Source: Escherichia coli (GTDB lineage: Bacteria > Pseudomonadota > Gammaproteobacteria > Enterobacterales > Enterobacteriaceae). Taken from it: a stretch of DNA of 64,000 nt. Below, piece after piece: positions 24,601-27,600 of the stretch (position 1 is its first letter; each line of letters opens with the position of its first letter). The stretch lies in the NCBI RefSeq assembly GCF_048403405.1, contig NZ_CP183129.1; one strand, written 5' to 3'. The position numbers were made by a program.

Positions 24601-27600
24601 AACATTACGAATTATGTATACGGGTGAAGCACTGCCTAATGATTGTGAATCAATTTTTTGGCTAAATATACTGGATATTTCAGCTAAACCTAAATTTGAA
24701 AATAAAAATAATTTAAATGTAAACTCAAATTATCTTCAACTCCCAATCCATAGTCGCATAAAGCTATTCTATCGTCCAGAAAAACTCACACGTTCTCTCA
24801 GTGAGGCCTATAATTCTGTTATATGGCATATTGAAAAACAAGGAGCAAAGGCCTTTCTTTGTGCAGATAATCAAAGTCCTTATTTTATTACTTATAATCA
24901 TATTACTTTGATTCAGAGCAACTACTCACAATCAATTAATCCAGTAGATATGGTTGCTCCTTATTCTTCAATACGCCTTCCTATACATGGAAATATGTCG
25001 GGATATGGAAAAGTGAAGTGGACAGTTGTTAACGATTATGGTGGGCATGAATTAAGTGAGTCAGCTCTGAAATAAGGATAATATTTATGAAATATTGCAC
25101 TTAAACTGAACATCATTCATTCCTGCCTGCCATATTTATTTCACTGGGAGTTTTTTCCATGGACACAGTGGCTATGGAATATGCTGAATTTGATCCCAGT
25201 TTTTTACAGCATACTCAAGGGAAGACGACGTTAGATATTCATCGTTTCAATCAAGGAAATCCAACTCCAGCAGGAAAGTACTATGCTGATGTTTATCTTA
25301 ATAATAAATGGAAAGGGCTCTGCCTTAGTGTTTCTTACGCCATTTGTCACATTAACATTTTTGGTGTTTACACCTGAAACCTGGGTACATGGAGCAGATG
25401 CTCATACTGAGTTTCCTTATCTTTCCGGTGCGGGAAGGTTAGTTCTGAAAGATACTATGATGATAGCAGCAGGATTTGTTGCAATGGTACATTCTGCAAG
25501 GTGTATCACTAAAAAGTAGTGAACACTATCATTTATCTGATTTTTATTTTCTAGTATTATATGAGGTTATCGCGTCGTGGAGGGGAACTTTCCCCCTCCA
25601 CTCCCACGGAGCCGGACGTGGCAGTATCCCGTCATCTGGCTCTTGTAGTTGACTGGTAACATCGCGTACAAATAGTCCAGTGTGCAAACAAACTGAGTTT
25701 AACATTCCGGATCCTGTCTAATCATTCATACGCTTGAACCAGACTACCGTGTCCCCTCTTGTATTTACGGGTAACCCATTTAGCAAGGTACAGATCGATA
25801 TGTCTGGCTATATAATCCATTACTGATTGACAAAAGCGTCCATAGTACAATACCCACGTAGCCTGAGATTGAGCCAACGTACCATTGTATCCAGTGATAA
25901 CGGTGCTCTGTGGCTTCAATCCTAACCCCGCACTGTCTGACGGATTGCCTCGCAAAAATGGACAATGCCGCTGAGGAACTGGCGTATAGTAATAGAGTCG
26001 CTTTATTGTCGAGTTCGGTGACCGCGACCGCTAGGATGGTCACTTTTGAAAAAGGCGTTTACACAGCATGGTAAACGGACTCGAAATTCTCTTACATATA
26101 CTGAAAATTAATTACAGTAACCTATTCGTTATAACCTGTTTAAACCCACTCCAATTCGTTATTTATCTCACGTCTGATCATGAATATATAAAAATCGCGT
26201 ATGTACGGTATGTCCGGTTAAAGTATTCAATGAAAGTGTCCTGCGTCGGCTTACCTGGCTGGATAAGATCCCGTTTTACTGCATGTTTTTCTGCCCATTC
26301 AGCCAGTATCAGTGAGATAAATTCTGGACCATTATTCATGTGCAGCATGATCGGGTAGCCGCAGTTTGCCGCGATCCTGTCGAGTACACGGATCATTCGC
26401 AGATCTGGCAGATTCAGAATGATTTTAATCGACAATGTCTCACGGTTAAAGTCATCAACTTTAACAGTCCGCCCGGTTTCAACCGACTTAATTACGGCGA
26501 TGATCTGATGCTCAGTAAAACAGGCTTTACGCATAGCGATCTCCTTCGTTGGCAAATTAATTATGCGGGATACTTACACCGTCAACCCCAGTATGCAGAG
26601 GATGAAGCATCAGATCGGAGCATTGTCTGATGGTGCCATACACCAGATTTAACAATAACCCGTTTAATACGCCAAGCTGCAAAGAAGCAATTAAGTATTC
26701 TAAAACAGATAGTTAAAACTTAAACCTTATCTAGGACAGCCCAAATTTTTATTATTTTTTAAATAATCACTTGCTAATGATAATTATATATACATACAAT
26801 GTGATATGTTATAACATAACAAAAAATGGCGGATAGTATGAAAAAATCTATTTTTAATTATACAACATTTTTTATTTCAATGAGTTATTCCTTATTTGCA
26901 AATGCAAGCCCTGCAATAAAATCAACTGAAAATCGGAACAATGAGGTATTAGAGGTCTATTCAACACCTTTGCATACTCCGCAAGAGAAAATGGCGATCC
27001 CCGTTTCTGTTCTGACACAAGAAGATCTACGCGCTAATCGTAGTGCCTCGATTGCTGAAACCTTAACATCCTTACCAGGTTTTCATGCCAGCTTTTTTGG
27101 TGGAGGCTCAGTTCATCCAGTTATTCGAGGAATGTCAGGCAATCGAGTCAAGGTATTACACAGTGGTAGTGATCTTATGGACGTATCCTCTATTGGTGCA
27201 GATCATACAATCACCAGTGAACCCTTTTTAAGTCAACGCATTGAAGTATTAAAAGGCCCTTCAACATTACTTTATGGAGGAGGCACAATAGGCGGTGCAA
27301 TTAATGTTATTGATAGCAAGATTCCTATGTCAGTGCCTGAAAAAGGCTATGAGGGTGAATTGCATTATCAATACGATTCTGTTTCTAAAGGAAATACAGG
27401 ATCAGTAGGATTAACGTTAGGAGAAAATAATTTGGCGCTTCGCCTTGAGGGTACTAAACGTTATCAAAGTGATTACAAACAACCAGAACCTTTACATCAA
27501 GGAGAAACTAGCCGTTTAGCAGGATCTTATCAAGATAACCAATCGGCAAATATTGGTGTATCCTGGCTTTTTGATGACGGTTATATAGGGATTGGTTATG

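What the first reader, a model, noticed from the sequence alone, without database searches (positions are those of the whole stretch)
25565..25955. 5'-truncated group II intron fragment next to the truncated fimbrial usher
A maturase-like C-terminal ORF is followed at the expected distance by a 34-nt hairpin resembling catalytic domain V and a GC-rich domain VI-like hairpin. Only about 400 nt of the intron remains, bounded by the usher fragment on one side and an IS3 remnant on the other, implying successive insertion and deletion events that destroyed the fimbrial operon.
Basis: partly seen in the sequence, partly recalled or inferred. Interest (0 to 1): 0.45.

Follow-up and report, generated by a model that had tools for sequence, protein, structure and literature searches.

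The report
Dead group II intron tail
This is the decayed last fifth of a self-splicing mobile intron (group II, class D), left as inert debris in a junk-filled stretch of a conjugative element shared by E. coli, Proteus and Providencia; it is real but ordinary.

Summary
On the minus strand, window 25950..25569 is the 3'-terminal ~382 nt (about 20%) of a ~1,864-nt bacterial group II intron. It comprises the last ~98 codons of the intron-encoded reverse transcriptase/maturase, domain V (25642..25609), domain VI with a bulged A (25575), and the 3' end ...CGAU (25569).

It is 78-85% identical to annotated ltrA introns on Serratia and Enterobacter plasmids (blastn E = 6e-121). The protein remnant carries the class D C-terminal signature. 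The copy is dead:
- It has one 4-nt frameshift and three in-frame stops.
- Two domain V pairs and one basal domain VI pair are broken.
- Domains I-III and the RT domain are absent.

That decay explains why Rfam scores it at only 31.3 bits against a cut-off of 40.

- The 5' break abuts an internally truncated IS256/IS1414-like end fragment (25946-26082), not the IS3 remnant (26181-26571).
- The 3' side adjoins a DUF417 pseudogene tail (25316-25519), not the usher.
- The usher is cut at 25316 by a direct joint to DUF417, not by the intron.

The whole mosaic is 99.7-99.9% identical in Proteus mirabilis and Providencia stuartii, which fits an ICEPm1-type element. It is a known kind of relic and of low interest.

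The parts
25569..25950 (-). 3'-terminal remnant (~382 nt, ~20%) of a class D-type bacterial group II intron
   Evidence: The remnant is 78-85% identical by blastn to annotated ltrA introns, with homology starting at 25954-25947 depending on the relative and ending at or beyond 25569. The full-length relative in L002 spans 2020-3883 = 1,864 nt.
25662..25948 (-). Pseudogene remnant of the intron-encoded RT/maturase (residues ~315-411 of 412): X/maturase domain plus class D C-terminal tail
   Evidence: tblastn with Enterobacter LtrA gives E = 3e-34. Residues 315-347 lie in one frame (25948..25850) with 2 stops; residues 347-411 lie in another (25856..25662) with 1 stop. A 4-nt deletion is visible in alignment A1. 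GIIM scores 23.0 bits. The tail LDRIRNVKLSLFAHW compares with the class D motif LX3AX3PXLF[V/A]HW (PMC4615759).
25609..25642 (-). Domain V, 34 nt (GAGCCAGAUGACGGGAUACUGCCACGUCCGGCUC), decayed
   Evidence: RF00029 and RF04356 alignments place it here. Two pairs are A.C mismatches only in the window copy (columns 11-34 and 16-27). MFE is -14.0 kcal/mol against -20.2 for the intact relative.
25569..25608 (-). Domain VI hairpin with bulged branch-point-like A (25575) and 3' terminus ...CGAU (25569)
   Evidence: RF00029 alignment covers this stretch. Relative to five other copies, the upper stem keeps two both-sides-changed pairs, and one basal pair is broken (G.G). All copies end in CCCGAT or CGCGAT.
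25563..25568 (-). First 6 nt of the 3' exon, AACCTC; the family's conserved homing-site 3' exon is AACCCC
   Evidence: Five independent contexts share AACCCC after ...GAT and then diverge completely. EBS1/IBS1 and EBS2/IBS2 complementarity in relatives fixes the intron boundaries.
25946..26082 (+). IS256/IS1414-like end fragment (last ~35 transposase codons, frameshifted, plus the IS terminus near 26082), broken internally at the joint with the intron
   Evidence: The fragment is 80-83% identical to IS1414-family copies in L004 and L005. Translation matches ...ASQKWTMPL..SRFI.EFGDR..DGHF*. It occurs only once in the window.
26083..26180 (.). 98 nt of unassigned AT-rich DNA between the IS256-like piece and the IS3 remnant
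   Evidence: No match was found in E. coli genomes or plasmids apart from the 13 identical loci. GC content is 31%.
26181..26571 (-). IS3-family remnant, internally deleted (~600 bp missing) and 3'-truncated
   Evidence: Two blastn pieces span ~1,000 bp in intact IS3 copies but only 390 bp here. Pfam rve and HTH_Tnp_1 match. PGAP annotates a partial 'DDE-type integrase/transposase'.
25316..25519 (+). DUF417 pseudogene tail (last ~62 codons), convergent with the intron remnant and 49 nt from its 3' end
   Evidence: Pfam DUF417 matches profile positions 114-172 of 175, E = 7e-17. PGAP calls it a pseudogene missing its N-terminus.
25159..25316 (+). N-terminal ~55 codons of a fimbrial usher, fused directly to the DUF417 tail
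   Evidence: PapC_N matches at E = 7e-11. DNA homology to Proteus usher genes ends at 25316. PGAP annotates a 72-aa 'FimD/PapC N-terminal domain-containing protein'.

Best explanation
Window 25950..25569 (minus strand) is a non-functional fossil of a bacterial group II intron of the endonuclease-less class D (IIB3) type.

Proposed history:
1. A full-length ~1.86-kb intron most likely retrohomed into a site whose 3' exon began AACC(C/T)C, about 50 nt downstream of a DUF417 gene and antisense to it. This step is inferred.
2. A later deletion or illegitimate joining removed the 5' ~1.5 kb of the intron together with its 5' exon. The lost part comprised domains I-III, the start of domain IV and the whole RT domain. 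The break was fused to an internal point of an IS256/IS1414-like element. The joint itself is shown; the mechanism is inferred.
3. The remaining maturase tail, domain V and domain VI then decayed neutrally, accumulating one frameshift, three stops and three broken helix pairs. This is shown.

The remnant can neither splice nor move. It has no 5' splice site, no exon-binding sites and no RT, and its catalytic hairpin is damaged. It persists only as a passenger in the degenerate variable region of an ICEPm1-type integrative conjugative element. That element has since spread, fossil included, among Proteus, Providencia and E. coli.
For: Identity as an intron:
- blastn gives 78-85% identity to annotated ltrA introns over exactly this span.
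- tblastn to LtrA gives E = 3e-34.
- RF00029 matches the full model at 31.3 bits, against 58.1 bits for the intact relative.
- GIIM matches the ORF.

Class:
- The relatives' LtrA is 412-420 aa.
- It is 50-52% identical over its full length (E ~1e-152) to E.c.I9. E.c.I9 is a curated class D, RT-X only intron (PMC3552965 Table S1).
- The window remnant retains the class D tail ...LFAHW.

Authentic 3' junction:
- All copies end ...GAT, followed by AACCCC in five unrelated contexts and AACCTC in the window.
- The relatives' boundaries are fixed by GTGTG at the 5' end and by IBS1/EBS1 and IBS2/EBS2 complementarity.

5' joint as a deletion:
- IS256-like homology (26082->25946) and intron homology (from 25950-25947) meet with a 3-5 nt overlap.
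- The IS piece is broken inside its transposase gene and is not continued on the other side of the remnant.
- No other intron piece and no homing-site 5' exon occur in the 64 kb.

Decay:
- There is a 4-nt deletion and three stops.
- The pairs broken in domains V and VI are broken only in the window copy, while window-specific compensatory changes in domain VI show that its ancestor was a distinct, once-functional lineage.

Passenger status:
- 13 E. coli genomes carry the stretch at >=99% identity.
- Proteus mirabilis ATCC 29906 and Providencia stuartii NCTC11800 are collinear at 99.7-99.9%, with zero differences inside the remnant.
- ICE genes flank the region.
- ICEPm1 is described as having a 'degenerate region' module (PMC11278526).

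Precedent: fragmented bacterial group II introns are documented (PMC4181065).
Against: - The RF00029 score is below Rfam's gathering threshold, and GIIM sits exactly on its cut-off. Taken alone, neither model hit would be conclusive.
- The class D assignment rests on one curated reference and a motif with two deviating positions. No phylogeny against other classes was made.
- The original insertion site cannot be reconstructed. Only 6 nt of 3' exon can be tied to the family's homing site, and no empty site or full-length copy at this locus was found.
- The order of the rearrangements is not determined.
- Absence of function is inferred from sequence, not from expression data.
Confidence: 0.9

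Rival explanations
1. The 5' truncation arose during insertion, not afterwards. Target-primed reverse transcription starts at the intron's 3' end, and an abortive cDNA would leave only the 3' portion, as in LINE 5' truncation. On this view no full-length copy ever existed at this site.
For: - The 3' junction is intact and matches the family's homing-site 3' exon in 5 of 6 positions, while the 5' part is missing. That is the polarity expected of abortive TPRT.
- Short 3'-terminal pieces of a related intron are very common in E. coli: about 2,690 records have a ~148-nt piece.
Against: - The 5' flank is not the homing-site 5' exon; no IBS2/IBS1-like sequence is present.
- The 5' flank is not contiguous with the 3' exon. 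It is the interior of an IS256-like transposase gene whose continuation (GACTGGATTGCC... in intact copies) is not found after the remnant.
- Both partners at the joint are truncated internally, which fits a later deletion better.
Confidence: 0.07
2. The intron was cut by insertion of the neighbouring IS3 element, or by an IS-mediated adjacent deletion. This is what the first reader implied by 'bounded by an IS3 remnant'.
For: - An IS3-family remnant lies about 230 nt away.
- In Serratia entomophila (L003) and Arsenophonus (L008), copies of the same intron family also sit next to IS3-family transposases.
Against: - The sequence at the break-point is IS256/IS1414-like, not IS3.
- No IS terminus lies at the joint. 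The IS256-like piece presents its interior to the intron and its terminus (~26082) to the other side. The IS3 remnant is separated by 98 unassigned nt plus the IS256-like piece.
- The Serratia fragment breaks at a different intron position, about 85 nt further upstream in alignment A1.
Confidence: 0.03
3. The remnant has been co-opted. Its GC-rich domain V/VI hairpins might act as a transcription terminator or RNA-stability element for the convergent DUF417/fimbrial transcript, or as a cis-regulatory RNA, as speculated for conserved intron fragments in Sinorhizobium.
For: - The stretch folds very stably (z = -5.05).
- It is perfectly conserved across three genera.
- PMC4181065 hypothesises regulatory roles for long-lived intron fragments.
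Against: - The conservation reflects recent horizontal spread. The whole flanking 1.5 kb differs at only 1-2 positions, so it says nothing about selection.
- The genes it could serve are themselves pseudogenes.
- No terminator-like site with a T-run and no promoter excess was found in the remnant.
- The hairpins carry fresh mismatches.
Confidence: 0.02
4. The resemblance is a chance one: an arbitrary ORF plus two GC-rich hairpins that happen to look like a maturase tail and domains V/VI.
For: Both curated-model scores are marginal: RF00029 at 31.3 against a cut-off of 40, and GIIM at 23.0 against a cut-off of 23.0.
Against: - Contiguous nucleotide identity of 78-85% over ~385 nt to annotated introns, E = 6e-121.
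- LtrA tblastn E = 3e-34.
- The order, spacing and 3' terminus are identical to those of full-length copies.
Confidence: 0.005

Closest known systems
Bacterial class D (IIB3) group II introns, e.g. E.c.I9 of E. coli ATCC 8739, E.c.I2, and RmInt1 of Sinorhizobium meliloti
   Same: - The full-length relatives have an RT-X only IEP of ~412-420 aa, 50-52% identical to the E.c.I9 IEP.
- They share the class D C-terminal tail ...LFAHW, which the window also retains.
- Domain V is 34 nt with an AGC triad and a GNRA loop.
- Domain VI has a bulged A 7 nt from the 3' end.
- The introns are ~1.86 kb long, GTGTG...GAT.
- The homing site extends from the 5' exon to about +6, comparable to RmInt1 (-20 to +5) and RmInt2 (-16 to +7).
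   Different: - The window copy keeps only the last 20% of the intron and is mutationally dead.
- Its lineage is distinct: no significant DNA-level similarity to E.c.I9 was found in the window, and the nearest relatives, on Serratia plasmids, are 85% identical.
- The motif has R in place of A and L in place of P.
Fragmented group II introns such as FRE652, the RmInt1-like remnant of Sinorhizobium (Toro et al. 2014, PMC4181065)
   Same: - It is a long-lived, non-autonomous intron fragment in an intergenic or mobile-DNA setting.
- It is carried along with neighbouring genes through rearrangements and horizontal transfer.
- It accumulates point mutations and deletions.
   Different: That paper reports that RmInt1-type introns typically fragment by losing the 3' terminus, keeping 5' ribozyme pieces. 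Here the 5' part is lost and the 3' terminus is kept.
'Degenerate region' variable module of ICEPm1 (Proteus mirabilis HI4320; Flannery et al., as summarised in PMC11278526)
   Same: - The window region is 99.9% identical to P. mirabilis ATCC 29906 and 99.7% to Providencia stuartii.
- It lies next to ICE replication-module genes (topoisomerase III, STY4534-family protein).
- It consists of gene and IS fragments.
   Different: Identity with ICEPm1 of HI4320 itself was not tested, because that genome was not in the searched collections. The papers read do not mention an intron fragment.

Membership tests
Group II intron (Rfam RF00029 domains V-VI) | 34-nt domain V hairpin with an AGC catalytic triad, a 2-nt bulge and a GNRA tetraloop | tested here: met
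   25642..25609 has AGC at positions 2-4, an AC bulge and a GAUA loop, and it aligns to the full model. Two helix pairs are mismatched in this copy only, so the score of 31.3 bits falls below the gathering score of 40; the intact relative scores 58.1.
Group II intron (Rfam RF00029 domains V-VI) | Domain VI with a bulged branch-point A 7-8 nt from the 3' splice site, and a 3' terminus of AY | tested here: met
   The bulged A lies at 25575, 7 nt from the end, and the terminus ...CGAU lies at 25569. One basal pair is broken.
Group II intron (whole element) | 5' GUGYG boundary and domains I-III, with EBS1/EBS2 pairing to the 5' exon | tested here: not met
   These are absent from the window. Intron homology starts at ~nt 1,480 of 1,864, and no other piece occurs in the 64 kb. 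They are present in the relatives L002 and L006-L008. The window therefore holds a fragment, not an intron.
Group II intron (whole element) | Intron-encoded protein with RT domain (RVT_1) plus X/maturase domain within domain IV | tested here: not met
   Only LtrA residues ~315-411 remain, disrupted by one frameshift and three stops. GIIM matches partially, over profile positions 35-70 of 80. No RT domain is present.
Bacterial class D (IIB3) intron ORF class | No D/En domain, and the C-terminal class D motif LX3AX3PXLF[V/A]HW | tested here: met
   The relatives' LtrA is 412-420 aa and ends ...LDRIRSVKPGLFAHWGVCTRR. The window reads LDRIRNVKLSLFAHW. The motif is taken from PMC4615759. Two positions deviate (A->R in all copies, P->L in the window).
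Bacterial class D (IIB3) intron ORF class | Phylogenetic clustering of the IEP with curated class D members | tested here: inconclusive
   The IEP is 50-52% identical over its full length to the curated class D IEP of E.c.I9, E ~1e-152. No tree was built, and no comparison was made with classes A, C, E or F.
ICEPm1-type integrative conjugative element | ICE core modules, with the same sequence present in Proteus and Providencia | tested here: met
   PGAP annotates PFL_4669-family and STY4534-family ICE proteins and topoisomerase III next to the region. A STAXI RNA is present. The region is collinear at 99.7-99.9% identity with P. mirabilis and P. stuartii.
ICEPm1-type integrative conjugative element | Integration at tRNA-Phe with 52-bp direct repeats | not tested
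   The ends of the element were not examined.

The most novel reading that the evidence does not exclude
3'-retained stubs of class D introns may not be random deletion products. Examples are this 382-nt piece and the ~148-nt piece found in about 2,000 E. coli genomes. They could be a systematic outcome of abortive target-primed reverse transcription by endonuclease-less introns in Enterobacterales, a bacterial counterpart of LINE 5' truncation. Alternatively, the DV/DVI stub might be retained because it does something, such as acting as an RNA stability or termination element.
Probability: 0.04. Interest if true: 0.4.

Novelty: already known. Interest (0 to 1): 0.08.

Why it matters
It matters little biologically. 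The remnant is a molecular fossil that records one of several mobile-element insertions and deletions in the degenerate cargo region of a clinically widespread ICE.

Practical value:
- It is a small annotation gain. None of the 13 RefSeq E. coli genomes annotates anything at 25540-26180.
- It gives a corrected map of the mosaic: usher | DUF417 | intron tail | IS256-like | unassigned | IS3.
- The identical fossil can serve as a marker that the Proteus, Providencia and E. coli copies of the ICE descend from one already-decayed ancestor.

Tried and rejected
- **Whole-window Rfam scan at gathering thresholds.** It found no intron family, only STAXI. The intron appeared only in a permissive local scan.
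- **IS3 as the truncating element.** Rejected, because the joint is with IS256/IS1414-like DNA.
- **Intron inserted inside the IS256-like element.** Rejected, because the IS sequence occurs only on one side.
- **Other intron pieces or the homing-site 5' exon elsewhere in the 64 kb.** None found by blastn, tblastn or fuzzy pattern search.
- **An intact or empty version of the site.** I tried an exact 36-nt 3'-exon pattern against one genome per species and distant blastn of 25090-25575 against plasmids and E. coli genomes. Only identical decayed copies were found in Proteus, Providencia and 13 E. coli genomes, so the native context of the DUF417 tail and the 3' exon remains unknown.
- **DNA similarity to the curated class D intron E.c.I9.** None at nucleotide level in the window; only the proteins of the full-length relatives align.
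- **Co-option as terminator or promoter.** No supporting signal lies inside the remnant.
- **EBS2 candidate at intron nt 351 in L002.** Discarded in favour of GGAAC at ~nt 220, which lies upstream of EBS1 as expected from the general layout of these introns (my own knowledge).
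Full report
**1. What is in the sequence**

The feature lies on the minus strand. Read 5'->3' from 25950 down to 25569, it contains the following elements:
- The tail of a reverse-transcriptase/maturase gene.
- A 34-nt hairpin, GAGCCAGAUGACGGGAUACUGCCACGUCCGGCUC (25642..25609).
- A GC-rich hairpin, GGAGGGGGAAAGUUCCCCUCC, with a bulged A at 25575.
- The terminus ...CGAU at 25569.

Covariance models:
- The Rfam gathering-threshold scan of the whole window found only a STAXI RNA at 19772-19932.
- A permissive scan of 25300-26300 found RF00029 (group II intron domains V+VI) at 25644..25569 (-). It covers the whole model (1-77) at 31.3 bits, against a cut-off of 40, with local E = 4.5e-4.

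Protein search:
- ORF 25722..25955 (-) matches Pfam GIIM at exactly its cut-off (23.0 bits, E = 7.8e-5). The match covers only ORF residues 34-68.

The 76-nt DV-DVI stretch folds at -41.4 kcal/mol, z = -5.05. On their own these results are suggestive and marginal.

**2. Decisive evidence from relatives**

blastn of 25540-26180 against plasmids gave 78-85% identity over window ~25954-25565 to loci annotated 'ltrA: group II intron reverse transcriptase/maturase' or 'maturase-specific domain-containing protein'. The hosts are Serratia, Enterobacter, Yokenella and Arsenophonus, and the best E-value is 6e-121.

The Enterobacter bugandensis copy (L002) is full length:
- It starts with GTGTG at 2020.
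- RF01999 (D1-D4) matches 2075-2191 at 114 bits.
- ltrA spans 2558-3796.
- RF00029 matches 3808-3883 at 58.1 bits.
- It ends ...CCCGAT at 3883, giving 1,864 nt.

Aligned to L002, window homology begins at 25947-25954, depending on the relative, and runs to the intron's last base. The window therefore keeps about 382 nt, or 20% of the element.

**3. State of the remnant**

tblastn with the L002 LtrA (412 aa) gives E = 3e-34, but in two frames:
- Residues 315-347 align at 25948..25850, with stops at 25924-22 and 25918-16.
- Residues 347-411 align at 25856..25662, with a stop at 25724-22.

The frame change is a 4-nt deletion at ~25856/25857. The 77-codon ORF is therefore only partly the ancestral reading frame.

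In a six-copy alignment of DV-DVI:
- Two domain V pairs (columns 11-34 and 16-27) are A.C mismatches only in the window copy.
- One basal domain VI pair is G.G only in the window copy.
- Two pairs in the upper domain VI stem changed on both sides while keeping the pair.

The ancestor was thus a distinct lineage that had been under structural constraint, and later changes are decay. Domain V stability drops from -20.2 to -14.0 kcal/mol. This explains the sub-threshold Rfam score.

Domains I-III, the 5' splice site, the exon-binding sites and the RT domain are absent from the entire 64 kb. The element cannot splice or move.

**4. Which kind of intron**

- The relatives' IEPs are 412-420 aa.
- They are 50-52% identical over their full length (E ~1e-152) to the IEP of E.c.I9 from E. 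coli ATCC 8739 (L012). Toro and Martinez-Abarca list E.c.I9 among class D introns with RT-X only ORFs (PMC3552965 Table S1).
- The class D C-terminal motif is LX3AX3PXLF[V/A]HW (PMC4615759).
- The relatives read LDRIRSVKPGLFAHW. The window, downstream of its premature stop, reads LDRIRNVKLSLFAHW.

I therefore assign the family to class D (IIB3). No tree was built.

**5. The 3' junction**

Every copy ends ...C(C/G)CGAT. In five unrelated contexts this is followed by AACCCC before the flanks diverge completely; the window has AACCTC.

The full-length relatives also share a 5' exon...AAAATTTnnGnGGnTTCCnGCnTAG. In L002:
- The last seven exon bases, CGCTTAG, are the exact complement of CTAAGCG in a hairpin loop at intron nt 250-256. 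This is an EBS1-like site.
- GTTCC at -12..-8 complements GGAAC at ~nt 220. This is an EBS2-like site.

This is the pattern of a retrohoming site. It is comparable in extent to RmInt1 (-20 to +5) and RmInt2 (-16 to +7). The joint at 25569|25568 is therefore a genuine intron-exon junction.

The 3' exon continues for 49 nt to the stop codon of a convergent DUF417 pseudogene (25316-25519, +).

**6. The 5' junction**

In fact window 26082->25946 is 80-83% identical to the end of IS256-family IS1414-like elements. It encodes, on the + strand and with a frameshift, the last ~35 residues of that transposase (...ASQKWTMPL...SRFIVEFGDR..DGHF*).

- IS-like and intron homologies meet at 25946-25950 with a 3-5 nt overlap (AGGCA).
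- The IS piece presents its interior to the intron and its terminus (~26082) to the far side.
- It occurs nowhere else in the window.

The joint therefore links two internal break-points. This points to a deletion or illegitimate recombination, not an IS insertion and not an intron sitting inside the IS.

Beyond it lie 98 unassigned nt (26083-26180). Only then comes the IS3 remnant (26181-26571). It lacks ~600 bp internally and also lacks its 3' end.

**7. The usher**

PapC_N similarity and DNA homology to Proteus usher genes end at 25316, precisely where DUF417 similarity begins. The fimbrial operon consists of a subunit gene (23867-24277), a chaperone gene (to 25075) and the usher stub. It was truncated by a direct usher-DUF417 joint about 250 nt from the intron. 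Nothing implicates the intron in that event.

**8. Where the mosaic lives**

- The window is E. coli chromosome: 13 of 5,426 complete genomes carry the stretch at >=99% identity, and RefSeq annotates nothing at 25540-26180.
- Neighbouring genes are ICE functions: PFL_4669-family and STY4534-family proteins, topoisomerase III and an ArdC pseudogene. They are mixed with many partial genes.
- An exact-pattern scan of one genome per species found the same arrangement in Providencia stuartii NCTC11800 and Proteus mirabilis ATCC 29906. These loci are collinear at 99.7-99.9% and have no difference inside the remnant.
- This fits ICEPm1, which is described as having a 'degenerate region' variable module between its conjugation and replication modules (PMC11278526). 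Identity with the HI4320 element itself was not tested.

The decay therefore predates the recent inter-genus spread. The perfect conservation reflects recency, not selection.

**9. Mechanism and rivals**

*Best explanation (about 0.9).* An insertion by retrohoming was followed by deletion of the 5' 1.5 kb and then neutral decay. The remnant is inert.

*Abortive target-primed reverse transcription (about 0.07).* This would also leave a 3' piece. However, the 5' flank is neither the homing-site 5' exon nor continuous with the 3' exon.

*Truncation by IS3.* This is contradicted at the joint.

*Co-option as a terminator or regulatory RNA.* It has no support, for three reasons:
- No T-run terminator or promoter excess was found.
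- The adjacent genes are pseudogenes.
- The helices carry fresh mismatches.

*Chance.* This is excluded.

**10. Comparison with what is known, and verdict**

Fragmented bacterial group II introns in mobile DNA are well documented. For RmInt1-type class D introns the reported tendency is loss of the 3' terminus (PMC4181065). Here the opposite end is lost, which is a minor difference.

The remnant is a correctly spotted but ordinary relic of a known family in a known degenerate ICE region. Its novelty is 'already known' and its interest is low. Its description of the neighbours and its causal link to the fimbrial operon are not.

Noticed in passing
window 19772-19932 (+): A full-length STAXI RNA (RF01728, 121 bits, E = 1.5e-25) is the only Rfam family above threshold in the window. 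It fits the ICE context.
   Followed up: no
L009 3001-3148 (E. coli F9792 plasmid NZ_CP024274.1); equivalent to window 25569-25717: About 2,690 E. coli records (~2,000 genomes, many of them plasmids) carry a ~148-nt 3'-terminal stub of a related class D intron, comprising the end of ltrA, DV and DVI. It is ~84.6% identical to the window and sits directly after a truncated transposase. Whether it reflects one ancestral event or recurrent 5'-truncated insertions is unknown.
   Followed up: partly
L002 1990-2019 / 3884-3889; L006, L007, L008 equivalent positions: Full-length relatives in four unrelated plasmid contexts share a homing site. The 5' exon is ...AAAATTTnnGnGGnTTCCnGCnTAG, which includes a small GC hairpin in some copies, and the 3' exon is AACCCC. 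In L002 there is exact IBS1/EBS1 (CGCTTAG/CTAAGCG, intron nt 250-256) and IBS2/EBS2 (GTTCC/GGAAC, ~nt 220) complementarity. I did not determine what genetic element this target belongs to.
   Followed up: partly
window 25316 (+): The usher N-terminal stub (~55 codons) is fused directly to the last ~62 codons of a DUF417 gene, with no IS at the joint. RefSeq annotates the 72-aa chimeric ORF as an intact 'FimD/PapC N-terminal domain-containing protein'.
   Followed up: partly
window 26083-26180: A 98-nt AT-rich stretch (31% GC) lies between the IS256-like terminus and the truncated IS3 remnant. It matches nothing in E. coli genomes or plasmids other than the identical loci.
   Followed up: no
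window 26826-28919 (+) and 28921-31299 (+): Two adjacent TonB-dependent receptor genes are present. The first carries a long histidine-rich insert (…HDHEDDHHHHAPIRPPLIGHHHHNHNHEYPDEQHQH…), suggestive of metal binding. It is probably part of the ICE's metal-uptake cargo.
   Followed up: no
L007 5486-6282 (Yokenella regensburgei plasmid NZ_CP050813.1): Another copy of the same intron family lies about 2 kb from FimD/PapC usher fragments. No DNA homology to the window's usher stub was detected, so as far as tested this is a coincidence.
   Followed up: partly
L001 12139-12842 (window ~22340-23040): A speFL leader peptide gene is followed by only the N-terminal domain of an Orn/Lys/Arg decarboxylase. 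This is another truncated gene in the same degenerate region. ClbS/DfsB and ArdC pseudogenes lie beyond the TonB receptor genes.
   Followed up: no
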